From assembly GCA_964016885.1 (NCBI GenBank), contig OZ024745.1, positions 69,874,001-69,938,000 on the forward strand: a stretch of 64,000 nucleotides of DNA, read 5' to 3'. The notes beneath the pieces were generated by a model. The model saw only the letters and a program-made list of their open reading frames with translations. It made no database searches and was not told the DNA's origin. This DNA is from Eledone cirrhosa (taxonomy: Eukaryota). Of the stretch, positions 8,801 through 58,480 are shown piece after piece. The translations under genes and the position numbers were made by a program. Positions within the stretch are counted from its first letter, which is position 1. Each line of letters starts with the position of its first letter.

Positions 8801-11426
8801 CAGGAGAACATGATATGAAGGCTAAAAAACACTTGTGGATAGTGCAGTTTTAAATCAACATATGAAAAGTGGTTTTAGATTGATGTGTGATATTGGGAAA
8901 AATATTTTATTTAGAGAGGGGGGGAAGGATGAAAAAGGGGAGGAGATGAGAGTGAAGGTGGAGAGGGAGAGATGGGTGATAGAGAGAAAGAGATAGTTTT
9001 TATAACTGAGAGAAGATATATTGTTTTACATAGAGAGGTTGAAAACCGTTGGAAGATAATGTATAAATTAAAAGAATTTGAAAATTAACGAAGGGAAAAA
9101 TATGTACGAGGAAAAAATATTTTATTTAGGGAGGGGTGGTGGAAAGGATGAAAAAAAGGGGAGGAGATGAGAGTGAAGGTGGAGAGGGAGAGATGGGTGA
9201 TAGAGAGAAAGAGATAGTTTTTATAACTGAGAAAAGATATATTGTTTTACATAGAGAGGTTGAGAACCGTTGGAAGATAATGTATAAATTAAAAGAATTT
9301 GAAAATTAAAGAAGGGAAAAATATGTACGAGGAAAGAGAGGTAGTTTATGTATGAAGATAGAGAGAAAAAATAATAATTGCGGATGAATATTCTAACGTC
9401 AAAAAGGTGTATGTTGATAAGTATTGTGGCAATTTCAAAATTAACGAAGAGAAAAAATGATTAAGGTTTGTGTGTAGAAGGATTTGAGAAAAATAATGTG
9501 AAGTTAAAGTTTGTATATTGAAGGAATTGATAATATGTGCGAAGAAAGAGTTAATATGTATTAAAAAATTATTAAGGTTTGTGTATTAGATGATTTGAGA
9601 AAAATAATGTGAAGTTAAGGTTTGTATATTGAAGGAGTCGAGAATATGTGCGAAGAAAGAGTTAATATGTATTAAGAATGAGTTCGTTGATGGGGAGAAA
9701 AAAATAATAAATTAAGGATGAAATTGAGATTAAAAAGTTTTATGATAGAGAGAAAAAATAATAATAATTGCGGATGAATATTCTAGCGTCAAAAAAACAA
9801 ATGTATATGTTATGAAGGATTTTACAAGGTGAAGATAGAATGAGGGTAATGAGTAAACAAGTATTATAGAGTGTATAATGCCCTTTGAAGTAAGGTAGGA
9901 AGATGGGTATATTTTAAAGAGGTGTATGCATATGTGCCTTTGAGAAAAGATTCTAAATTGATAAAGAATTGAATATTAGCTGTATACTTTGTGAAAAGTC
10001 CTATGGAATTTATGCAGGCAGATAGAACACAAATCTGTACGTCTATTTATTATAGAATCTAGATTAGAGATAATGGTAAATTTTTCATTTAGGCAGAGAT
10101 TACAGATTTTAGATAGAGAGCTGTTCTGTAATCTCGGCCTAAATGAAAAATTTACCATTATCTCTAATCTAGATTCTATAATAAATAGACGTAATGATTT
10201 GTTTTCTATCTGCCTGCATAAATTCCATAGGACTTTTCACAAAGTATACAGCTAATATTCAATTCTTTATCAATTTAGAATTTTTTCTCAAAGGCACATA
10301 TACATACACCTCTTTAAAATATACCCATCTTCCTACCTTACTTCAAAGGGCATTATACACTCTATAATACTTGTTTATTCATTACCCTCATTCTATCTTC
10401 ACCTTCATAACATATACATTTGTTTTTTTGACGCTAGAATATTCTTCCGCAATTATTATTATTTTTTCTCTCTATCATAAAACTTTTTAATCTCAATTTC
10501 ATCCTTAATTTTATTATTTTTTTCTCCCCATCAACGAACTCATTCTTAATACATATTAACTCTTTCTTCTCACATATTATCAACTCCTTCAATATACAAA
10601 CCTTAACTTCACATTATTTTTCTCAAATCATCTAATACACAAACCTTAATAATTTTTTAATACATATTAACTCTTTCTTCGCACATATTATCAATTCCTT
10701 CAATATACAAACTTTAACTTCACATTATTTTTCTCAAATCCTTCTACACATAAACCGTAATAATTTTTTCTCTTCGTTAATTTTGAAATTGCCACAATAC
10801 TTATCAACATACACCTTTTTGACGTTAGAATATTCAACCGCAATTATCATTTTTTCTCTCTATCTTCCCTACATAAACTACCTCTCTTTCCTCGTACATA
10901 TTTTTCCCTTCGTTAATTTTCAAATTCTTTTAATTTATACATTATCTTCCAACGGTTCCCAACCTCTCTATGTAAAACAATATATCTTTTCTCAGTTATA
11001 AAAACTATTTCTTTCTCTCTATCACCCATCTTTCCCTCTCCACCTTCACTCTCATCTCCTCCCCTTTTTTTCATCCTTTCCACCACCCCTCCCTAAATAA
11101 AATATTTTTTCCTCGTACATATTTTCCCCTTCGTTAATTTTCAAATTCTTTTAATTTATACATTATCTTCCAACGGTTTTCAACCTCTCTATGTAAAACA
11201 ATATATCTTCTCTCAGTTATAAAAACTATCTCTTTCTCTCTATCACCCATCTCTCCCTCTCCACCTTCACTCTCATCTCCTCCCCTTTTTCATCCTTTCC
11301 ACCCACCCCCTCTCTAAATAAAATAGTTTTCCCAATATCACACATCAATCTAAAACCACTTTTCATATGTTGATTTAAAACTGCACTATCCACAAGTGTT
11401 TTTAGCCTTCATATCATGTTCTCCTG

Positions 11427-12540: not shown

Positions 12541-12656
<116 letters not shown>

Positions 12657-12736
12657 AAAGGTAAACAGAAATAACAACACAATCGGTACAGTATATGGAA
12701 GGAATATATTAGGTTAACGCTTGATATAGCAGAAGG

Positions 12737-12772
12737 TCTTAACGTTTCGGACGCTAGACCTTCATCAGAAGA
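12737..12772 (-). ncRNA. Minimal type I hammerhead in a Penelope pLTR-like remnant
   Basis: Minus strand TCTT CTGATGA AGGTCTAGCGTCC GAAA CG TT AAGA; palindromic ACGT stem III; stem II weak. Confidence 0.65.
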
Positions 12773-13339
12773 AAGAATAAGAAATAAGATAGATTGAGGG
12801 GACGGGCGTGTTAGAATTGGAACAAATGTCTTTAGATAAAAATAACAGGTCCGTTCATGTTGATACCTCTTGCAAAATTGTTTGTGCTGGGGTTTTGTGT
12901 ATGATTTATTTGTTAGAAAATTGGATGATGGAGCGCGTCTACCTGAAATGGAAAAAAAACGTTATGTAAAAAAGATATACTTGTGCACGTGCGTAAGCAT
13001 GTGTGTGTGTGTATGTGTGAGTGTGTGAATATATGTGTGTTATTATACGTCTGTACGAAGCTAATATGAAATGTGTGTGTATATGTAAGTAAAAGAGTGT
13101 ATGTGCATGTAAGTACGAAGATATAAGCAAAAGTATTTTAATATAAGGGTGTGTGTGTATATATACAGAGCTGTGAATGGAAAAGGGGAGTGAGCATATA
13201 TAGTCGGTCTGTATTTATATATATATTTATATATATATATATAAATATATATATAAATTTATATATATAGGGATTTATATATATATATATACATATGTAG
13301 TAAGGTGTATTATTGGTTGTATCAAACGGTCCAATCAAT

Positions 13340-40052: not shown

Positions 40053-42683
40053 TATTATTATAAATTTATTATTATTATTATTGTTCTTTGAGTCTCAGTC
40101 ATTGATGTTAGTTAACTGGAAATTTTCTTGAAATGAATATCAAGCCACTACCTGCAGCCTCAGATATTCAGGACGTATCGGAGGGTTCTTGCTGTTCCCA
40201 GCAAGCATGCATTTTGAAGCGTTCCAAAAAGCGTGGCGGGGCCAATTTTCTTTAACCATCCCTGGAAACCTTTTGAGATAGTACCTAGTGCGCCTATGAC
40301 AATTGGGACAACTTTGACTTCATGGCAGTTCCAAATCCATTTTACCTCCCACTTTAAGTCCTGGTATCGGTTAATTTTCTCCCTCTCCTTCTCTTGTACT
40401 CTCGTGTCGAACGGGCAGGCCACATCCACAATCAGGCACGATCTTTTTTCCTTGTCCAAAACCACCAGGTCAGGTCTATTGTGTTCCAGTTTCTTGTCCG
40501 TCTGTATCCTAAAATCCCACAGCACCTTCACCTGATTGTTCTCCATCACCGCCTCTGGCCTATGCTCATACCATTTCTCAGAATGTGGTAAATTGTTTAC
40601 TTTGCACAGGTGCCAGTGGTCACCCTGCCCATCATATCGTGTCTCCAGCCCTTATAGTGGGTCTGGGCTAGGTGTTTACACTCGGACACAATGTGAGCCA
40701 CAGTCTCCTCTCTCTCTCCACAGATCCTGCACAGTGGGCTAGCCTCCTCCTTGTAGATATGGTGCTTCAACCACTTCGTTTTGATGGCCTGCTCCTGCGC
40801 AGCCATTAGCATTCCTTCAGTAGCCTTTTTGAGGTCTCCTCTTCTCAACCAGTTCCATGTCTGTGGATCTCTAAATTCAGTTTTCTCAAAGAAGGTACTA
40901 TGAAGGGATTTTCCCTTAAGGCTGCTCTTCCTCCTTGATGTTATTTCCTCCTTGGACATCCCCTGGCCTACTGTCCCCTCCTTCAGTACAGCTCTGAGCA
41001 TTGGCTCCTTACTATAGGTCACGTATTTGTATAGGTTGTTTTTCTCCATCTGAACACAGTCCTCTATGCTGATAAGACCTCTTCCACCCTCAGATCTCCT
41101 TAGGTAGAGTCTATCGACATCACTCCTCTTGTGGAACATGTTGTAGATAGTCAATAGCTTCCTAGTCTTCCTATCCATTTCTTTTTGTTCAGCAACATTC
41201 CATCTCAGAATTCCCGCACTGTACCTAATAATAGACACAGCTCGGGAATTTACTGCGCTTATGGCGTTTCTGCTGTTCAGATGTGACTTCAATACGCTCC
41301 TTACTCTCCGAATGTATTCAGTTCTTAACAATTCCTTCATTTTTTTGTTCTTTATGCCATCAGCCTCCAGAACGCCCAAATACTTGTATCCTTCCTCAGA
41401 GTCAATTTCCTTTATCATCTCACCTGTTGGTATCTGGATCCCGTTACTTCTGCTCAACCTACCCCTCTTCATCACAATGACTCCACATTTACCAATACCA
41501 AACTGCATACATATATCACTGCTGAAAATACGGACAGTGTCAACAAGCACATCCAACTCCTTCTCACTCTTCCCGAAGAGCTTAAGATCGTCCATTAAGA
41601 GGAGGTGATTGATGGTAAGATCTCCCTTTCCCAACTTGTATCCTGCACTCACTTTTCGCAGTATAATGGTCAGGGTCATCAGGGCATGGACAAACAACAG
41701 AGGGGACAGACTATCTCCCTGTAAGATCTTCACGCCTCCAAAGGATTCTCCAGCTGATGTTAACTCTGTTTTCCAGGACTTCATACTTTTGCTCAACAAC
41801 TGTCTGATATTATCTGCCACCTTGAAGATATCTAGGCTTTTGGTGATCAAAGAATGAGGCACCATATCAAATGCCTTTTTGTAGTCTATCCATCCCATGG
41901 CACGACCAGTGTGTCTCCTCTTGCAATTCCTCATTACCATCTTATCAATAAGTAACTGGTCCTTTGTACCACGGGACTTCTTTCGGCATCCTTTCTGTTC
42001 GTCCGGTAACAAGTTGTTTGTGTGGAGGTGATGGTAGATTTCCTCAGACATAATGCTTGTCAACAGTTTCCACATTACGGACAGACATGTGACAGGTCTA
42101 TAGTTGGTAACATCCTAACCCTTGATTCGGTTTTTCATTACCAGAACTGTGGTACTTTTGTCAACCACTCTGGTACCTCACCCGAAATCAAGCAGTCATT
42201 GAACATGGTTGTCAGTTTCGGGTGGAGGGATGTTATATTTTTAATCCAATGCCCCTGCACACCACCAGGGCCTGGTGATTTCCAGTTGGTTAGCTTTTTG
42301 GCCTGCCCCTTAAGAGTTTCAACTGTGATACTCAACTCAGTTTGTTGTTGTGCCTGCTCACCGATCTCCCTCTGTACTGTCTCAATCCACCCTGCCTGGG
42401 CATTGTGTCTAACATCCTGCTCCCATATTCCTCTCCAGAATGTTTTAGTTTGCTCCGCCCCAGGGATCAAGTCGTTGCCTCTTTCTTTCCCCTCAAGCTG
42501 TCCAAACAGCATCTTCTGGTTGTTGTCGAACATGCGGTTCTGTTTATACTGACTGACTCTGTTCTCGTATCGCCTGATTTTTGCACTCTTTGCTACAATG
42601 CGTTGCTTCAGTTCCTCTATGATAATATTTAGCTTTTTACTCCTAGTTTTGTATTTTATTTCCAGTCTATTTTTAGTGCCTAT
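40053..42683 (-). mobile_element. R4/Dong family B copy B1, 5'-truncated
   Basis: ORF pieces 42138-42683, 40597-42075 and 40160-40549; LMDDLKL, CRIC..HIVSEC, HNRPDLV; (TAA)n tail. Confidence 0.92.
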
Positions 42684-42705
42684 GTTATTATTATTATTAT
42701 TATTA

Positions 42706-42745
<40 letters not shown>

Positions 42746-45258
42746 AGTTGCATTTATCTTGCTTTATGTTCATACGAGTTATCACCAAGTCACAACCAGT
42801 GACCTCAAGAGCCAACAAGGTCCGCCATGTTCAAGATAGAACGTACATACTCACACATGCATCTTTAGTGTTTAGACTTGTGATGTACTTATATTGACAG
42901 AATCTTCCTTAGTATATGGGCAGTTCCCATTAGTACTATCTTTTGTATTTCTCCTATACGCGGGTTTCCTGGGATTTGCGATAAGTAATCATTAGACCAC
43001 TTAGGTATCATTCCCAGAGCGCCTACAACCTCTGTTACTGTTTTAGTTCTCAATTTCCACATTTTTCCAATTTCTATCTCCAGGTCCTTATACTTGCTCA
43101 ATTTTTCAAATATTTTTATAGATACATTCTTGTCTATTGGAACAGACATATCAATTAGCAGGCATACCCTCTTTTTGAAGTCCTTCAATATTATATCAGG
43201 TCTATTTGCATCTATTTTTCGGTCTGTTTGGATGCTAAAGTTCCACAAGATTGAGATGTAATCTTTTTCAAGTATGGGAGGTGGTTGATGCTCCCACCAA
43301 TTCTTTTGATGGGGCAGGTCAAAATGCTTACACATTATCCAATGTATGTATTGTGCAGCTCTGTCATGCCTGTTTAGGTATTCGGTTGGAGCTGTAGGAC
43401 TGCACATTGAAATGATATGGTCAATGGTCTCTTGTTGTTTTTTGCATACACGGCATAATGGGCTGCATCCATTTTTTATTATGTTGGCTTGGAAATTTTT
43501 TGTTGGCAGACACTGATCTTGTGCTGATATAATCAGTCCTTCAGTCTCCGATTTCAGTCCAGAGGATGCTAACCACTGATGGGTTAAAGTTTTGTCAACA
43601 TCAGAATTATTAGCTCGCTCTGGGTATTTTCCATACAGAGGCTTTTCTTGCCATTTCTTAGCCAGTTTCTGTAGCAGTTCTTTCTTTGCAGTTACTTTTA
43701 CCTGCTTTGCTTTTTCTTTGTTTTCAATTTCAGCAGTAAATGGGACTTCTGAAATTTGTAGTCCATTACTGTATCTTTGTGCATCTTTTGTAATGGAATA
43801 TGATCTTTTGATGCTTTCGTGTTTCAAAACGAGTTTGATCATCCAATCATGTGATTCCCTTAGATATGTAGATAATCCAATTGTTGCAGTTTTCAACGCA
43901 ATGTATAACTGGATTAACCCACGTCCTCCTTCTTTCCTAGGGAGATATATTCTATCTATATCTGCCTCAGGGTGATGCATTCTGTTCATGGTGAAGAATT
44001 TTCGAATTTTTGTATCGAGCCTACGGATCTCTGTACTTGACCAGTTGATGACATTGTAACTGTAGGTTACTACTGGTATGGCAAGCGTGTTTATGGCATC
44101 GATCCTATTCCTTGCATTCAATTCCGTTCTTAAGATTGCTCTTACTCTGCGCTAACATTCCTTCCTTATCCTTTCCTTCATTGTCGAGAGCTTGATTCCG
44201 TCTCCTTCACAAACACCTAGATATTTGTAAGTTTTTTCTTGATCAAGTTCTCTTATCACGTTCCCCCGATCAAGATTAACGTCTGAACTCTTCAGCAGCT
44301 TTCCTCTGATGAACGTTGCTTTGGCGCATTTGTCTAGTCCAAACTCCATTTTAATGTCATCTCTGAACTGCTCCACAGTGGATAATAGCCCTTGCAATTG
44401 TTCACCATTTTTTGCAAATAGTTTCAGGTCATCCATGTAGAACAAGTGATTAATGGTTTTGTCAGAGACTTTATATCCATGTTTTGTTTCATTGAGCACT
44501 TTACTTAATGGTATAAGTGCGATGCAGAATAAAAGCGGTGATAAAGAGTCACCCTGAAAAATTCCACAATTAATATTAACTTCTCCAGCTTCCAGTGATT
44601 TTGTTTCACTATTCAAAAGGAGTGTCGTTTTCCATGTCTTCATACTGAATGACAAAAACCTCCTGACAACGGGGGATATTTTGAAAATCTCTAAACATTT
44701 TTCAATCCAACTGTGTGGCAAACTACCGAATGCTTTTTTATAATCTATCCAAGCAATCGATAGATTTTTGTGTCTATCATGACAATCTTCCAGTATTATT
44801 TTGTTAACCAGAAGCTGATCCTTACAGCCATATGAATCTCTTTTACACCCTTTCTGCTCAATGGGAAATAGGTCATTTGTTATCAGGTGGTCATATGTGT
44901 ATTCAGTTAGGACTGATGTTAAAATTTCATACATTGTGGTCAAGCAAGTTATCGGTCTGTAATTTTTGGGATTGTTTGTCTCATCATTCTTCGGAAGCAG
45001 GAATGTAATGCCGTTAACTAGCCATGATGGTATCTTTTCTGGCTCCTTAACTATTTCATTTTAAAGTTGGGCTAACAGCTCATGAGACTCTGTGAAGGCA
45101 TTTATCCAAAAGTTTTGTATTTTGTCTTTTCCTGGGGATTTCCATTTGCTGGTTTTTCTTAGAGCCAAGCGCAACTGTTCAACTGTTATATTTTCCATAT
45201 TTGTTCCTCAAGGTGAGCCGTATCTTTCATTTGTCTGTCTATCCATGGGGCATGTATG
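42684..45258 (-). mobile_element. R4/Dong family A copy A2, 5'-truncated
   Basis: Highly similar to 35081-37596; ORFs 44152-44943 and 42889-44121; (TAA)n tail at 42684-42743. Confidence 0.93.
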
Positions 45259-47334
45259 TTATTATTATTATTATTATTATTGTTATTGTTATTCCTTGAA
45301 TCTCAGTCATTGATGTTGGTTAACTGGAAAGTCCGTTGGATTGAATATCAAGCCACTCCCTGCAGCCTCAGATATTCAGGACGTATCGGAGGGTTCTTGC
45401 TGTTCCAAGCAAGCATGCCTTTTGAAGCGTTCCAAAAAGCGTGAAGGGGCCGATTTTCTTTAACCATCCCTGGAAACCTTTGGAGATAGTCCCCAGTGCG
45501 CCTATGACAATCGGGATCACTTTGACTTCATGGCAGTTCCAAATCCTTTTCACCTCCCACTTTAGGTCCTGGTATCGGTTAATTTTCTCCCTCTCCTTCT
45601 CTTGCACTCTCGTGTCGAACGGGCAGGCCACATCCACAATCAGGCACGATCTTTTTTCTTTGTCCACAACCACCAGGTCAGGTCTATTGTGTTCCAGTTT
45701 TTTGTCCGTCTGTATCCTAAAATCCCACAGCACCTTCACCTGAATGTTCTCCATCACCGCCTCTGGCCTATGCTCATACCATTTCTCAGAATGTGGTAGA
45801 TTGTTTACTTTGCACAGGTGCCAGTGGATCACCCTGCCCATCACATCGTGTCTCCAGCCCTTATAGTGGGTCTGGGCTATGTGTTTACACTCGGACACAA
45901 TGTGAGCCACAGTCTCCTCTCTCTCTCCACAGATCCTGCACAGTGGGCTAGCCTCCTCCTTGTAGATATGGTGCTTCAACCACTTCGTTTTGAGGGCCTG
46001 CTCCTGCGCAGCCATTAGCATTCCTTCTGTAGCCTTTTTGAGGTCTCCTCTTCTCAACCAGTTCCATGTCTGTGGATCTCTAAATTCAGTTTTCTCAAAG
46101 AAGGTACTATGAACGGATTTTCCCTTAAGGCTGCTCTTCCTCCTTGATGTTATTTCCTCCTTGGATATCCCCTGGCCTACTGTCCCCTCCTTCAGTACAG
46201 CTCTGAGCATTGGCTCCTTACTATAGGTCACGTATTTGTATAGGTTGTTTTTCTCCATCTGAACACAGTCCTCTATGCTGATAAGACCTCTTCCACCCTC
46301 AGATCTCCTTAGGTAGAGTCTATCGACATCACTCCTCTTGTTGAACATGTTGTAGATAGTCAATATCTTCCTAGTCTTCCTATCCATTTCTTTTTGTTCA
46401 GCAACATTCCATCTCAGAATTCCCGCACTGTACCTAATAATAGACACAGCTCGGGAATTTACTGCGCTTATGGCATTTCTGCTGTTCAGATGTGACTTCA
46501 ATACGCTCCTTACTCTCCGAATGTATTCAGTTCTTAACAATTCCTTCATTTTTTTGTTCTTTATGCCATCAGCCTCCAGAACGCCCAAATACTTGTATCC
46601 TTCCTCAGAGTCAATTTCCTTTATCATCTCACCTGTTGGTATCTGGATCCCGTTACTTCTGCTCAACCTACCCCTCTTCATCACAATGACTCCACATTTA
46701 CCAATACCAAACTGCATACATATATCACTGCTGAAAATACGGACAGTGTCAACAAGCACATCCAACTCCTTCTCACTTTTCCCGAAGAGCTTAAGATCGT
46801 CCATGAAGAGGAGGTGATTGATGGTAAGCTCTCCCCTTCCCAACTTGTATCCTGCTCTCACTTTTCGCAGCATAATGGTCAAGGGCATCAGGGCAAGGAC
46901 AAACAACAGAGGGGACAGGCTATCTCCCTGGAAGATACCTCTCTTGATCTTCACGCTTCCCAAGGATACTCCAGTTGATGTCAACTCTGTCTCCCAGGAC
47001 CCCATACTCCTGTCCAGCAACTGTCTGATGTTATCCGCCACCCTGAAGATCTCCAGGCTTTTGGTGATCCAGGAATGAGGCACCATGTCAAATGCCTTTT
47101 TGTAGTCTATCCATCCCATGGCAAGATCAGTGTGTCTCCTCCTGCAATTCCCCATTACCATCTTATCAATAAGCAACTGGTCCTTTGTACCACGTGACTT
47201 CTTTCGGCATCCTTTCTGTTCGTCCGGTAACAAGTTGTTTGTGTGGAGGTGATGGTAGATTTCCTCAGACACAATGCTCGTCAACAGTTTCCACATTACG
47301 GGCAGACATATGATAGGTCTATAGTTGGTAACAT
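45259..47334 (-). mobile_element. R4/Dong family B copy B2, 5'-truncated, uninterrupted RT-RLE frame
   Basis: (TAA)n tail at 45259-45291; contains the 642-aa ORF. Confidence 0.93.
45368..47296 (-). CDS. RT, zinc knuckle and restriction-like endonuclease of R4/Dong copy B2 (N-terminally truncated)
   Basis: 642 aa without stops: [36 protein letters not shown]. Confidence 0.85.
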
Positions 47335-47711
47335 CATTATTATTATTATTATTATTGTTATTGTTATTCCTTGAATCTCAGTCATTGATGTTGGTTAACT
47401 GGAAAGTCCGTTGGATTGAATATCAAGCCACTACCTGCAGCCTCAGATATTCAGGACGTATCGGAGGGTTCTTGCCGTTCCAAGCAAGCATGCCTTTTGA
47501 AGCGTTCCAAAAAGCGTGAAGGGGCCGATTTTCTTTAACCATCCCTGGAAACCTTTGGAGATAGTCCCCAGTGCGCCTATGACAATCGGGATCACTTTGA
47601 CTTCATGGCAGTTCCAAATCCTTTTCACCTCCCACTTTAGGTCCTGGTATCGGTTAATTTTCTCCCTCTCCTTCTCTTGCACTCTCGTGTCGAACGGGCA
47701 GGCCACATCCA

Positions 47712-47712
<1 letters not shown>
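47335..47712 (-). mobile_element. R4/Dong family B copy B3 (3' end only)
   Basis: Near-identical to 45259-45637. Confidence 0.92.
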
Positions 47713-47771
<59 letters not shown>

Positions 47772-48173
47772 AGTTGCATTTATCTTGCTTTATGTTCATA
47801 CGAGTTATCACCAAGTCACAACCAGTGACCTCAAGAGACAACAAGGTCCGCCATGTTCAAGAAAGAACATACATACTCACACATGCATTTTAGTGTTTAG
47901 ACTTGTGATGTACTTATATTGACAGAATCTTCCTTAGTATATGGGCAGTTCCCATTAGTACTATCTTTTGTATTTCTCCTATGCGCGGGTTTCCTGGGAT
48001 TTGCGATAAGTAATCATTAGACCCCTTAGGTATCATTCCCAGAGCGCCTACAACCACTGGTATTGTTTTACTTCTCAATTTCCACATTTTTCCAATTTCT
48101 ATCTCCAGCTCCTTATACTTGCTCAATTTTTCAAATGTTTTTATAGATACATTCCTGTCTATTGGAACGGACA
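47713..48173 (-). mobile_element. R4/Dong family A copy A3 (3' end only)
   Basis: Matches 42684-43148; (TAA)n tail at 47713-47770. Confidence 0.92.
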
Positions 48174-50854: not shown

Positions 50855-51146
50855 TATATATATGTATACACAGTTCAAGAGTAACCAATCTTGAAGACAG
50901 AGATGAAGATAGGAGAGGAGAGATTGGTGAATTAGTTAGAAGCCAAAGCGTAAAGGCAAGTGCTGAATGTGCAATATGCAGTGGAAATCAGCTAGGTGGC
51001 TGGGTTCATGCAGAAGTTAGGCGCGCAGAGCTGGAAATATTCATTAGTTAAGCAAAACAAAACAAGGAAGACATCATTACAAGATTGTCAACATATTTTA
51101 GTTTGATGTAAGGGATGTAGAGAATAATAATAATAATATTAATAAT

Positions 51147-51333
51147 AATTGTTTCTTCTTTAGGCACAAGGCCAGAAATTACCCAGTACATTACTGGTAC
51201 TTTATTTTATCGACCCCGTAAGCATGAAAGGCAAAGTTAACCTCGGCGGGATTTGAACTCAGACTGTAAAGGGACGTAACTATGCTAGAAAGCATGGCGT
51301 CCAACCCTCTACCGATACTGCCAATTCATCACC
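51147..51333 (-). mobile_element. tRNA-derived SINE with (ATT)n tail and possible 18-bp TSD
   Basis: Full reverse-complement copy; aataatattaataataat at 51132-51149 and 51334-51351. Confidence 0.9.
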
Positions 51334-51449
51334 AATAATATTAATAATAATATTAATAATAATAATGTCCGTTTACAATTGTTTCGCTACTTCATATAAT
51401 ATTTCTGGATCAAATGACTATATCTCATTATTGATCTGGTTCAGTTGAA

Positions 51450-53640
51450 AATAATTAACATATTCAAAAACAGAGCGGCTAATCGGTACTTCAAAGGAAT
51501 ATAAATTAAAATAAGGAGAGAATGTTACACAATGTAATGCTCCATATATTGGTATTTCACTATGGTCTCCTGGGTGTATCAATTGTCAGCCATAATCAAG
51601 CAGTATTCATCTGTCGAGGCTGCATTGTGTGAGATCTCCCTATGGGTTACAAGATGGCCGCCAATGGACATATTTACCTTACTAATTAGAGGGTGGTTTC
51701 AGGGGAAGTAACTCCTTGAGAGATTAGAAATTGTGGGTAGTTTATAGTTAAGTGCTAATTTTTAATGTTTTAATTGAGAGACAACGTAGGGGAGGTAACT
51801 TATAATTATCTAAGTTAGTTATAGCTATTTAACTTATTAGCTACAAGTAAAAATGGGGCTAGATGACTATGTTGGGTCAAATATTCTGTTGGCGTAGGAA
51901 TTATCCCTTCGATGTTGACAGCTAATCGTTAATCGGTAGAGGTCGTGATAGAGTTATATAATATGCTTCGGTAATACAGAGATCACAAGATTTTCTTCGT
52001 CCATTGAACGGTTGGGCCCTAACTATGATATCCCATGTTAGTGAGTGTTCAATGTTGGTTAATTTAAGGTTTTTAATGAGCCTAGCTAGAGATGTCGAAC
52101 ATCTGTTGTTAGGGTCTCGGAAGGAAAAAGAGGGCGCGTTATAGCGTACCTTAAAAGGGTTAGAGGTAGATCCGATATAGGAACTGGTATTCGAATGAGT
52201 TTTAACCGTGCACCTATAGAGTATGTTGGGTGTCAGTGAGTGTCCATTTAGTGGGCATGCATTAGGGTAACGGCAGTTGCAGTTACTTCTGCGGTTAGTG
52301 AGAGTAGGGTAGTTTAACCTAAGCGGTTGGTCAGTCTTAGAAGGATTAGATGGGGGAGGTGTGCTACTAGAGTAAGTATTGGTGTAGTGGCGTGGTGTAT
52401 TTGATAGGGTGGTGGTACCGCGGTGTGGGAGTTATACTGTCTTAGTTTATGATGGTTACTGAATGCGATGTGGCTAGCTAGGTTAGGTGTTGTGGAGAAT
52501 GAGATTTTAATGTTATTTTTATTAAAGAGTTTGTAATATCTATGGTTGAGAGGGGGGGATATTTAGATAGGATAGAGAAGAAGCGTTTAGAGATATTAGT
52601 GGCTAGATTAGATGAATTAAGCCAGGTGATATTTCTAGGCCTATTCCTTCTAGGTGTTCTAGTGGAGTTGGTAGGGGCCTTCCTAGGGTTATTATTACCT
52701 GGGGATTTGTTATTTGTCATCCCATTTCTCATTCCTATTCTAGGGTTGATCTTTAGTTTGCTACTTGGAGTGGAGAGCAGGCCCCTGCCACCATTAAAGT
52801 TCCCTGTATAGGTGCTGTAACTGCTAAAATTCCGGCGAATCTGGCTATATGCTAAGGTATTTCTAGTTCTAGTGTTAAGTTTATTATGGTGAATTGTGTG
52901 TTATGGCATTTAGGTATGTAGTAAATGGATCGTTCATAACCAGATTCAGAAAGAGCATTATTATAATATAGTGCATGGTTTATAAATATCTCCTCATTTG
53001 CTGACAGCATGGAGATCCTATACGAGATAGATTTGATTACTGCACTGATGACTGCCGGTGAGTGGTTAGAGTGTGGGCTAATATATGTGAGTATTTCCCC
53101 TGGTTTATGGTAAGGGTAATATAGGTTATTGTTGAGATCCAGGGTGACGTCTAGGAAGTTTATTACTTTATGGTTCGGCTCGATGGTGATAGAGAGCCCG
53201 TTATTTTTAAAGATTCTATGTAATTGTTTTTTTAGTAAATCAATGCCCCGATTAGTGCAATTGTGGTCTGCAAATAGGGCGTCGTCCCTGTATATTCCGC
53301 CTTGTAATGGTTGGATTTCGGCTCTGATGTTATGTAATAGGTAAATTCCAACTAAATCGGTGATTTGCGCAGAGTCACTTGAGCCCATCGTGATTTCAGA
53401 GTTGTCTGTTCTGTCTTTTCTAGTCCAGAGTGCTCCGTTGAATTCAATGATGGTCTGCCTAGCAATAAGTATGATGTCAATCTCATTATTAGTTATGTCC
53501 GAGTTGGTGTTGGCTAGGGTTAATGCTTTGTTGAGCAGTTCCGAGGTTATTGAAGCGTAATAGCTGTCGATGTCAAATTGGATGAATCTCATAGATTGCT
53601 TGGACCTTAGATCGGAGAAACCTCTAATGACTTGGCCGGT
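51450..53640 (-). mobile_element. Naiad-type Penelope-like element, 5'-truncated
   Basis: RT ORF 52852-53640: FDIDSYY, ITMGSSDSAQITDLVGIY, GIYRDD, NFLDVTLDL; RNITWLN; CNCRYPNACPLNG; ILY..YIGSTS..FKVRYN; CDLCITE. Left boundary approximate. Confidence 0.9.
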
Positions 53641-54366
53641 GTATACATATACGGACGTCTGTATACATATATGGACGTCTGTATACATATACGGACGTCT
53701 GTATACATATATTTATGTACGTATACATACTTATATTTAAGTAACAGCCGTACTAAGAGTGGAAAATTAAATTTCGTTTCATTTTTTCCGTTTATTTATA
53801 TTTAGTTTGGAACACTATCCTTTTTTAAATATCCATCGAGCGCACGATGGTCTGCGCGCACGATCCTCCATATATGCATGTGTGTTTATAATAAACTTAT
53901 AATAAAAAATCGCTTACGAGAATAAATTATAAATTGGCTGTAGACCGTTTTCGGTGCACCCGGCCGATTAACCCACTCAATATGCAAATTAGGCTGCTCA
54001 GCCGTTAAAATGCATAAGGAAAGTATATACTTTCAGACGTTCAATCACCTGGCAGGAAGGTATATGTTGCTGACGATAGCTAATAAGCTTGAAACTAGTA
54101 CAGCGTTCCTGTGTCAGTGTTGAACAAACAAGCAATGATGGTTGGTAGACACTACGGCTTAATACGGGATGTTTGTTTACAAACACACCGAGCATTATAA
54201 TAAATGTTCGGTGAGTCCATACGTACATCTATATATGTGTGCATGTATGTATATATACATACTACTGTACGTCTGTATACATATATTTATGTACGTATAC
54301 ATACATATATTTAAGTAACAGCCGTACTAAGAATGAGAAATGAAATTTCGTTTCATTTTTCCGTTT
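53641..54366 (+). mobile_element. Diverged homolog of the 22-24 kb hammerhead unit (1 unit plus ~120-bp terminal redundancy, period ~574 bp)
   Basis: Reverse-complement similarity to the array units; extra ~140-bp segment at 53800-53945; lacks the long internal (TA)n; ends at (TA)n. Confidence 0.85.
54065..54105 (+). ncRNA. Type I hammerhead
   Basis: TGTTG CTGACGA TAGCT AATA AGCTT GAAA CTAG TA CAGCG; stem I sequence differs from the array copies but still pairs. Confidence 0.85.
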
Positions 54367-55370: not shown

Positions 55371-55789
55371 TATATAACACCGCCCACACATACCTACAGG
55401 TAAATACACATATGTTCGCTAAACGTACGTCAACCAAAATAGAAAGTACACTTATACACACACCCTACAATCGTGCAAACACTCATACACACACAAATGC
55501 AAAATACAGGTATACACATAACCATAGACGCATGTACCGGTATATATAATATAATATATACACCTATAACAAATACAGGCAAATATACGTACGAGAAAGT
55601 ATACGTACCTTCAAAAAACATAGAAGTAATATATATTTACCTATACAAATCAGTAATGGAAGCAGAAATTAAAAATTAGAATTGGAGCTCTGAAATTTTT
55701 AATTTCTGCCTGACCAACAACCGCTCTGCATAATCAGCTCCTGATTATTTACTAGATTTCTATAAGAATATAACATCATTGATCTCGGT

Positions 55790-55864
55790 AGACAGGAGGG
55801 GTAGTTGGCCTTGATAAGCTTCAACCAAAGCGAAACAAGACTTGTCGGCTTATCTCCCCTGTTT
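55790..55864 (+). ncRNA. Type I hammerhead, U3-A8 variant, unit 1
   Basis: GGCC TTGATAA GCTT CAACCA AAGC GAAA CAAGACTTG TC GGCT; stem I extends via GGGGTA/TATCTC and ACAGG/CCTGT. Confidence 0.82.
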
Positions 55865-56105
55865 GCTGAGATCAAAGTAAGTGAATTTGTCACTACTTTA
55901 AAACAATAGCTTACGGTCTTCAAAATGCTTTTAATTAAGCATAAAGTGTATTGCAAAATACATTATATATACATCCATATATATATTGCTATTTCAGAGC
56001 TCCAATTCTAATTTTTAATTTCTGCCTGATCAACAACCGCTCTGCATAATCAGCTCCTGATTATTTACTAGATTTCTATAAGAATATAACATCATTGATC
56101 TCGGT

Positions 56106-56180
56106 AGACAGGAGGGGTAGTTGGCCTTGATAAGCTTCAACCAAAGCGAAACAAGACTTGTCGGCTTATCTCCCCTGTTT
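56106..56180 (+). ncRNA. Type I hammerhead, U3-A8 variant, unit 2
   Basis: Identical motif 316 bp downstream. Confidence 0.82.
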
Positions 56181-56321
56181 GCTGAGATCAAAGTAAGTGA
56201 ATTTGTCACTACTTTAAAACAATAGCTTACGGTCTTCAAAATGCTTTTAATTAAGCATAAAGTGTATTGCAAAATACATTATATATACATCCATATATAT
56301 ATTGCTATTTCAGAGCTCCAA

Positions 56322-56370
<49 letters not shown>

Positions 56371-56545: not shown

Positions 56546-57229
56546 ATAAAAGGAATTCCAAATTTGTCTGATTTATTCGTTTTATTTACAATCCTTTAAA
56601 ATTATAATGATATTATAATGAAATAGTATGGTAGAATATTAAATGCTAAGTGTTAATTGAACAAGTACTTTCATGCTTTTGCAATAGTCAGGTTCATATT
56701 CTGTGCTGACAGTCAAGTTTGCAATTTTCAACTGTCTATATATATATATACATATATATGCCTACATACATATATATATATATATTCCGTGATATTCCTT
56801 GTTCGATCTTTATGCTGATAGCTTATAGTTTTAAGCAGGCAGTATTATTGATTTACGTGTCATAGAAACCCTACATTTGGTTTTACCACTAATTCCATTT
56901 GGGTCCAGGTCGGTTTTTATCATTTATTTTGTTTGACCTGTTTAGCTTGATTTGTTTTTTTGGCTTAGGTGGTTAATGACTTCTTAACCACTTTTTCAGT
57001 TTGTATGGCGTTTTAAATTATTGTTTAACTCTAGTTTTTTAAAACTATTGAGCGCTTGCCAGCATTTCTACGATTTTGCGTTTCGTTTCGCTTTTTCTAC
57101 CAGCCGAAATACGTTTCTCTCTGAATTATATTGTATTAATCTCTCGAGTCTTACAATTAACCTGTTAATAATTCTATTGACAGATTAATTGTATAAGTTT
57201 ATTTTAAAAACTACCCGGTTGAATGCTTA

Positions 57230-58480
57230 TTCGATTTGTGCTATCTATGACAGTCCATCTTTATTTAGACTTTACTATAAAAGGCATCTATGCATATCTA
57301 GGCATATATCACATTTATGTAACAGCTGTTCCTAGAGACTTTTTCCTTCGATATGAAATCCCAGATATTTCTGAGATATCTCGTGGAAAGAATCTACCTG
57401 TTCAATATGTTTTCTATATAGTATCCATGATTCACAAAATTACAGCACTTTTGAGTCAAACTCATTCCTCATTCATTCCATGTCCTTGCTTGCATCACTA
57501 GGCTTGGTAATCCTATTCAGCATCTCATTGTCTAACGAAACGCTAGGATTGATTGTGTCTACTAAGTATGGGAAGAACCTCACGACGTTAGAATCTTATA
57601 TTTGACAAGACTTTGATGTGATGCTGCACTGTATTTGGGCCGATGTAGTGCTATGTCTATTCTTTGAATTCTGTCTTTTTAACAATCTTTGTTAGGTCAA
57701 ATGGTTTTGATGTTGAGGCAAACCGGCTTACAACTTCTTTTGCCTCCCAGAAACATTAGCTATTGGATCTGCATCATCTGCAAACAAGTAAGCTAAAAGC
57801 ACTTTTGTTCTAGTAAGGGTCTTCCTCTTAAATCGTAGCTTTTAATAAACACAACTGATGTTCTAAATTTAAACAACACTCCATCAATATAGTTCTTGAA
57901 GGCATATTCTGGCATCAGAGAAGACTAAATAGCAAACAAAACAAGCTCTCCTTTTTTTGTCCCAGTTTTTACAGGTAAAGGAACTGATGTAGCTCCAACT
58001 GATTTTACAGAGGTTTGCATGTGTTCATTGAAGACTTTTATTCTACTGAGCATCAGCACTGACCACAAAGCATGGCGATTGTCAGAGTCAAAAGCCTTTA
58101 AGTCAACAAGTTAAATATATATGTCTCTGTTTTTCTCCAGTACCTTCTCTGCAACCTACCGCATGCAAGATATCATGTCTGTAAATCCACGTCCGGCCCT
58201 GAAGCCGCACAATGATTCAGAAATAAACATGGTATACCAGGTAAGTTATTATTCTGTTGAGAACAACAGTATCTTGCGCGCTATAGAAAGCAGTGATAAA
58301 AAATGATGATTGAGGCCAGGGCAAGATTTCGTTTGTAGAAATCCAGCTATCGCAAATAATTGTGTATCTACTATCCTTACGACATCGATATTGTCAAAGA
58401 TATTCTGAAAGATTATGCTTCAAGACACTTTGATTTTTTTAAAGTGTAACCATGTGCTTTGATCTGTGTAAATATGTAAT
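57230..58480 (-). mobile_element. Old RTE-clade LINE RT remnant
   Basis: Minus-strand motifs in the correct order: ESLCGFRAGRGFTDMI (~58170-58218), VDLKAFDS (~58083-58107), LFADDAD (~57767-57787), FPYL (~57565). Boundaries approximate. Confidence 0.78.

What the first reader, a model, noticed from the sequence alone, without database searches (positions are those of the whole stretch)
53641..54366. Diverged hammerhead unit with covarying stem I, fused in inverted orientation to a truncated Penelope RT
Seen: stem I is CGGUG/CAUCG in the array and UGUUG/CAGCG here; the core, stem II, stem III and octamer are unchanged while flanks diverge. The unit joins the 5'-truncated end of a Naiad RT at 53640 through a triplicated 20-mer (gtatacatata.ggacgtct), in the orientation an inverted pLTR would occupy. 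Inference: the ribozyme fold is under selection, and the junction may record a template switch by Naiad RT, identifying the helper element.
Basis: partly seen in the sequence, partly recalled or inferred. Interest (0 to 1): 0.7.

Follow-up and report, generated by a model that had tools for sequence, protein, structure and literature searches.

The report
Hybrid Penelope–retrozyme two-armed insertion
A decayed copy of a very abundant self-cutting-RNA repeat is joined back-to-back to a truncated Hydra-type (not Naiad) Penelope jumping gene, a join that recurs elsewhere in this genome and was likely made when two different RNAs were copied into the two sides of one DNA break.

Summary
The scan has described this retrozyme family before on other DNA (e1-8665316, e1-8803865); the hybrid join was not found among earlier notes. 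The hammerhead, inverted junction and triple 20-mer are real. The Penelope element is Hydra-clade, not Naiad. The unit is not 'diverged': it is the majority subfamily of a family with 12,473 exact core matches. Stem I covariation shrinks to one pair (U·G/G·U/A-U, 154 of 162 copies); the other change is CpG decay. The unit is not this element's pLTR, and no hammerhead was found in this Hydra family. The same back-to-back, TA-free join was found at three other loci, including 2 of about 174 Hydra insertions sampled (0.01-0.03 expected at random). Unit arms also pair with five other Penelope-type families, so the join does not name one helper. Single-family two-armed insertions never have two long ends (0 of 94); 3 of 3 scorable Hydra hybrids do. 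Best reading: two separately primed arms joined at one break. Later insertion plus deletion is a serious rival, since 33 of 51 free unit ends abut non-TA DNA. A missed part: 150 bp inside the unit arm was copied from a locus 270 kb away.

The parts
50907..53642 (-). 5'-truncated Hydra-clade Penelope-like element (here 'Hydra-A'); 3' long end at 50907 in (TA)n; interrupted by another repeat at about 51150-51336
   Evidence: about 95% identical to 39 other copies scored
52852..53640 (-). RT part of the broken ORF
   Evidence: tblastn; no Pfam match
51922..52431 (-). CxCx5C linker and C-terminal GIY-YIG endonuclease without CCHH
   Evidence: translation read against PMC8557442 section 11
53640..53642 (.). 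3-base microhomology shared by the Hydra arm and the unit arm
53641..53700 (+). Tripled 20-mer, derived from the unit's own sequence, likely by slippage at the join
   Evidence: compared with the unit; private to this locus among loci held
53701..53795 (+). Partial unit (piece A), 3' part ending at the family's long end; shares a private base with piece B
53796..53945 (+). 150 bp of two-copy DNA, the 3' flank of another unit copy 270 kb away on the same contig (L062)
   Evidence: 2 matches in the genome, 91% identical
53946..54366 (+). One full retrozyme monomer (piece B, about 420-430 bp) ending at the long end before (TA)n
53982..53989 (+). Octamer ATGCAAAT (promoter role inferred, untested)
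   Evidence: sequence; conserved in 12 of 12 aligned monomers
54064..54106 (+). Type I hammerhead: stem I 6 bp, stem II 4 bp, stem III 2 bp with palindromic loop, predicted cut after A54100
54366..54510 (.). (TA)n target tract at the unit's outer end
22560..24870 (-). Array of a second subfamily (period about 495 bp, four hammerheads) with a short inverted arm at 24783-24866

Best explanation
The locus is a back-to-back join of a 5'-truncated Hydra-clade Penelope arm and a hammerhead-retrozyme arm, both with 3' ends in (TA)n, likely made in one event in which two different RNAs were reverse-transcribed from the two sides of one break. The two cDNAs would then have been joined at their truncated ends through the 3-base overlap, with slippage tripling the 20-mer (inferred). 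The retrozyme encodes no protein and uses Penelope-type enzymes; the hybrid shows that its RNA can share an integration site with Hydra-A RNA, but not that Hydra-A is its only helper. The 150-bp insert was likely added by DNA repair that used the homologous copy 270 kb away as template and ran into its flank (inferred, about 0.65). The lone hammerhead has a 2-bp stem III and would need a partner copy to cut efficiently, so this copy is probably inert.
For: Shown: unit insertions have Penelope architecture, 79 of 130 scored 5' ends being joined to an opposite arm, with fixed long and short 3' ends, as in Hydra-A. Direct divergent unit/Hydra-A joins at three further loci. Rate 2 of about 174 Hydra-A insertions against 0.011-0.029 expected by random placement, P about 1e-4 to 4e-4. 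Of 51 free unit 5' ends (50 events), 6 events abut a divergent Penelope-type arm; with the probes used none abuts a same-strand arm alone. The same-strand Hydra pieces in the joins are short (38, 35, 144 nt), two of them about 5% of the arm they could be remnants of. A like hybrid of Hydra-A with another Penelope-type family, with a 44-nt patch, exists (L352). Long+long ends: 0 of 94 scorable single-family pairs, 3 of 3 scorable unit/Hydra-A hybrids. Insert: unique donor in cis (chance 2e-4), donor has its own 10-bp flanking duplication, piece B is not derived from the donor (91.5% against 94-98%).
Against: 33 of 51 free unit 5' ends abut non-TA DNA, at least 8 of them LINE sequence in either orientation by my reading, and the flank resumed collinearly within 100 bp in only 3 of 20 tested: joins to arbitrary neighbours through deletion are common. 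Units also lie beside Hydra-A across a TA tract (L051, L237, L374), the starting state for a deletion. If units are ten times enriched near TA tracts, 2 of about 28 free non-TA Hydra ends (hand count) is not significant (P 0.05-0.23). The third Hydra sample held 0 unit hybrids in about 55 new insertions. Three of the hybrids contain a same-strand Hydra piece, as the deletion model predicts. L238's Hydra end is neither long nor short. No empty site was available, and no target duplication can be read in (TA)n.
Confidence: 0.55

Rival explanations
1. Sequential events: the unit inserted at a (TA)n tract beside an older Hydra copy (or the reverse), and a target-site or later deletion removed what lay between and fused the two.
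For: Non-TA 5' flanks in 33 of 51 free ends; flanks rarely resume; TA-spaced neighbours exist; same-strand Hydra pieces in L032, L106, L238 could be remnants of an inner arm; the two families are of similar age.
Against: No hybrid keeps a piece of an inner unit arm or a long same-strand Hydra remnant; 6 divergent against 0 same-strand-only Penelope neighbours; long+long in 3 of 3 has P about 0.02 if ends were independent.
Confidence: 0.3
2. One reading: one RT switches between retrozyme RNA and Hydra RNA, marking Hydra-A as the helper.
For: The short Hydra pieces in L032, L106 and L238 lie on the same strand as the unit, as a switch from unit RNA to Hydra RNA would give; the unit's hammerhead has the extra U on both sides of stem II seen in many Hydra pLTR hammerheads (supplement S2 of PMC8557442).
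Against: The window join has no such piece and is inverted, which one switch cannot make; partners include five other families from at least two clades; no sequence match between unit and Hydra-A ends.
Confidence: 0.12
3. The unit is the Hydra element's own inverted pLTR.
For: Position and orientation match the inverted copy described for Penelope-like elements (PMC8557442 section 6).
Against: Full-length Hydra-A copies have their own pLTR and inverted arms, unrelated to the unit.
Confidence: 0.03

Closest known systems
Metazoan non-LTR retrozymes (PMC7229834, passages read; bioRxiv 10.64898/2026.07.22.740005, parts 1-3 of 5 read)
   Same: Non-coding monomer of a few hundred bases in tandem copies, type I hammerhead with short palindromic stem III, proposed mobilisation by Penelope-like elements.
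   Different: Those papers infer the helper from co-occurrence and pLTR homology; the parts read report no insertion with one retrozyme arm and one Penelope arm. No pLTR homology to Hydra-A was found here. RNA and cleavage untested.
Hydra clade of Penelope-like elements (PMC8557442; sections 6, 11, 15, passages and supplement part 2 read)
   Same: RT then GIY-YIG, RWK, DKT, CxCx5C, no CCHH, (TA)n targets, tandem and inverted truncated copies, tail at one end.
   Different: The paper says canonical hammerheads are universal in Hydra; none was found in 9 long Hydra-A copies with a relaxed descriptor (one weak hit). The inverted arm here comes from another element.
LINE-1 chimeras with other RNAs (PMC13174262) and two-L1 bridges (10.1101/2024.08.27.596794); abstracts and outlines only
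   Same: One insertion built from two RNAs, or two synchronous insertions joined at a break.
   Different: Different enzyme class; here in (TA)n with Penelope long/short ends and a ribozyme RNA as partner.

Membership tests
Naiad Penelope-like elements | GIY-YIG endonuclease N-terminal to RT | tested here: not met
   EN lies downstream of RT
Naiad Penelope-like elements | DKA motif and CCHH in EN | tested here: not met
   DKT in longer copies; no CCHH in the EN translation
Hydra Penelope-like elements | C-terminal GIY-YIG without CCHH, CxCx5C linker | tested here: met
Hydra Penelope-like elements | RWK and DKT motifs | tested here: met
   L051, L057; truncated away in the window copy
Hydra Penelope-like elements | (TA)n insertion, tandem and inverted copies | tested here: met
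Hydra Penelope-like elements | Canonical hammerhead in the pLTR | tested here: not met
   No strict core in 11 of 12 3' regions; no structural hit in 8 of 9 long copies, one weak hit. The descriptor found the unit's motif but missed the 316-bp repeat's, so variants can escape. Clade assignment rests on the protein motifs.
Hydra Penelope-like elements | RT phylogeny with reference Hydra proteins | not tested
   no reference proteins were held
Non-LTR retrozyme | Non-coding tandem monomer with type I hammerhead | tested here: met
   the window copy itself has one hammerhead only
Non-LTR retrozyme | Self-cleavage and linear or circular monomer RNA | not testable with these tools
   needs RNA data or an assay
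Non-LTR retrozyme | Homology to a Penelope pLTR (2026 preprint) | tested here: inconclusive
   none to Hydra-A or six other stretches tested; most families of the genome were not tested

The most novel reading that the evidence does not exclude
Penelope-type two-armed insertions can be built by two enzyme-RNA complexes working from both sides of one break and carrying different RNAs; single-family insertions get one long and one short end because both arms come from one RNA, hybrids get two long ends. A ribozyme-less Hydra family and a protein-less ribozyme RNA meet in such events, and hybrid counts across the genome would map which Penelope families move which retrozymes.
Probability: 0.35. 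Interest if true: 0.7.

Novelty: new variant of a known kind. Interest (0 to 1): 0.45.

Why it matters
How Penelope-like elements make their tandem and inverted structures is stated to be unresolved (PMC8557442 section 15), and their role as helpers of animal retrozymes is proposed from co-occurrence and homology. Hybrid insertions, roughly tens for this Hydra family alone (about 30), are a genomic handle on both: they can be counted, typed by end, and checked against empty alleles. If they prove to be deletions, the locus is an ordinary fusion of two decayed repeats.

Tried and rejected
Rfam did not report the unit's hammerhead in the window at E up to 1, only microRNA noise on TA repeats and a weak HH9 match to another repeat; a weak HH9 match (E 0.35) fell on one unit copy in L163. 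Single-strand folding of four hammerheads was no better than shuffles (z 0.59 to -0.79): uninformative for a motif with a 2-bp stem III. Pfam had no significant match to the five Penelope ORF pieces. Two DNA searches with mixed unit+Hydra queries did not enrich hybrids. A direct genome-wide count of junctions was not obtained; samples were used instead. Sequencing runs: no RNA holder listed. Rejected: Naiad; own pLTR; insertion of the unit with its own duplication inside the element (the Hydra sequence does not resume after the unit); a longer 570-bp subfamily (the insert has 2 matches only); window as donor of the 150 bp (the donor locus has its own flanking duplication and continues into other DNA). 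L103 and L096 have Hydra-like neighbours only across (TA)n and were not counted as hybrids; L188 and L028 were left out as low-complexity or complex. Literature searches for such hybrids listed none; subscription journals are not covered, and the supplements of the 2026 preprint were not seen.

Full report
Observation. The hammerhead at 54064-54106, the four array copies at 22.9-24.5 kb, the tripled 20-mer and the inverted join at 53640 are all in the sequence. The interval is composite: a tripled 20-mer (53641-53700), a partial unit ending at the family's long end (53701-53795), 150 bp of foreign DNA (53796-53945), one full monomer (53946-54366), then (TA)n.

The Penelope element. On the - strand the RT is followed by a CxCx5C linker and a GIY-YIG domain without CCHH. 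Longer copies begin with an RWK motif and carry DKT. These are the diagnostics of the Hydra clade; Naiads have the endonuclease first and DKA (PMC8557442 sections 6 and 11). A 28-base motif of its 3' end has 2,265 exact matches, about 2,500 insertions after correction. Its own pLTR and inverted arms are unrelated to the unit. No canonical hammerhead was found in it, although the paper calls hammerheads universal in Hydra; my descriptor also missed one likely motif, so this is a soft negative.

The unit. A 33-base core pattern has 12,473 exact matches, none for the reversed control; the estimate is 18,000-46,000 hammerhead copies. The window copy belongs to the commonest subfamily (61 of the first 100 listed). 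In 162 copies from sampled loci the middle stem I pair is U·G 112, G·U 22, A-U 20, U-A 3, C-G 1, unpaired 4 (copies were picked on the core and about a third of the loci by likeness to the window copy). On 12 monomers, 8 of 500 shuffles reached the covariation score and one stem I pair changed on both sides; relatedness can give this. The first stem I base differs only by CpG decay. Conservation is not special to the ribozyme: 91% there, 92% over the octamer block, 89% at the 3' end, 67% in one variable stretch. The motif fits the canonical metazoan type I form with a 1-2 bp stem III that needs a second copy (PMC4209133 passages); the window arm has one.

Penelope footprint. In 116 stretches, 79 of 130 unit 5' ends join an opposite arm of the same family; of the pairs with both ends scorable, 51 are long+short, 3 short+short, none long+long. 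Hydra-A gives 39, 1 and 0.

Does the join recur? Yes. L032/L254: unit arm, 38-base Hydra patch, Hydra arm. L106: unit arm, 144-base patch, 93-base Hydra arm, between two TA tracts. L238: unit dimer, short filler, 35-base fold-back patch, Hydra arm. From the Hydra side the rate is 2 of about 174 insertions: 1 of 39 picked by RT, 1 of 80 picked by a 3' motif, 0 of about 55 picked by the long end (some 5' ends lay outside the stretches fetched). Random placement expects 0.011-0.029. From the unit side, 6 of 50 free-end events abut a divergent Penelope-type arm: Hydra-A, two other Hydra families, a Neptune family, a fourth coding family and a non-coding repeat. Hydra-A also pairs with another Penelope-type family in the same way (L352). 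The join therefore points to Penelope enzymes in general, not to one helper.

Against a single event. Free unit ends often land in arbitrary DNA: 33 of 51 abut non-TA sequence, including LINEs in both orientations, and the flank seldom resumes. Units also lie next to Hydra-A across a TA tract at three loci. A deletion from such a state would give these structures, and with tenfold enrichment of units near TA tracts the excess is not significant. What favours one event is the shape: no long same-strand remnants, no inner unit arm kept, and two long ends in 3 of 3 scorable hybrids, which single-family pairs never show. The numbers are small. I put co-integration at 0.55, sequential insertion with deletion at 0.30, a single-enzyme switch at 0.12.

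The 150-bp insert. It has one other match in the genome, 270 kb away on the same contig, where it is the 3' flank of another unit copy with the same unit-flank junction. That copy has a 10-bp flanking duplication, so it is the donor. Pieces A and B share a base seen in no other of about 60 aligned ends, and B is not from the donor. The simplest account is that A and B were copied from one template and that repair of a break at the monomer boundary later used the nearby copy and ran 150 bp into its flank, rejoining at a 2-base overlap (inferred). Evidence for the conversion tract itself is one site on each side.

Comparison and verdict. Both partners are new members of known kinds: a non-LTR retrozyme (PMC7229834; preprint 10.64898/2026.07.22.740005) and a Hydra element. 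The hybrid resembles LINE-1 chimeras and two-L1 bridges (abstracts only); six searches of the held library listed no such structure for Penelope elements, and two look-ups in the scan's notes returned nothing for it. New variant of a known kind; interest 0.45.

Noticed in passing
window 55694-56328: Two copies of a 316-bp repeat, 99% identical, each with a weak Hammerhead HH9 match (E 0.017): a second retrozyme-like family, apparently the 310-nt family of earlier notes.
   Followed up: no
window 12655-12960 (-): 3' end of a Neptune-type Penelope element with its own minimal hammerhead at 12768-12745; relatives show RT, CxxxxCxxC linker and GIY-YIG.
   Followed up: partly
window 56786-57250: Abundant repeat with no open frame seen, often in inverted pairs with fixed ends and no hammerhead core noted; likely another Penelope-mobilised non-coding element.
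   Followed up: partly
L352:357-1176: Hybrid of a Hydra-A long arm with an arm of another Penelope-type family that carries a hammerhead-like core, joined through a 44-base patch.
   Followed up: partly
Hydra-A loci L128, L202, L204, L207, L212, L220, L322, L339, L349, L350: Many arms are 5'-truncated at nearly the same place, about 310 bases upstream of the last 250: a truncation hot spot or an internal RNA end.
   Followed up: no
window 15200-17110 (-) and 31961-32362 (+): Fragments of other Hydra-like families, 42-57% amino-acid identity.
   Followed up: no
window 35200-47900: Cluster of nested, same-strand LINE copies with C-terminal restriction-like endonuclease motifs (family label recalled, not tested).
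   Followed up: no
window 8898-11330: Large inverted repeat with internal 111- and 221-bp tandem units, transposon-like.
   Followed up: no
L163:4742-7328: A unit/Hydra-family hybrid join present twice in inverted orientation, a local duplication.
   Followed up: partly
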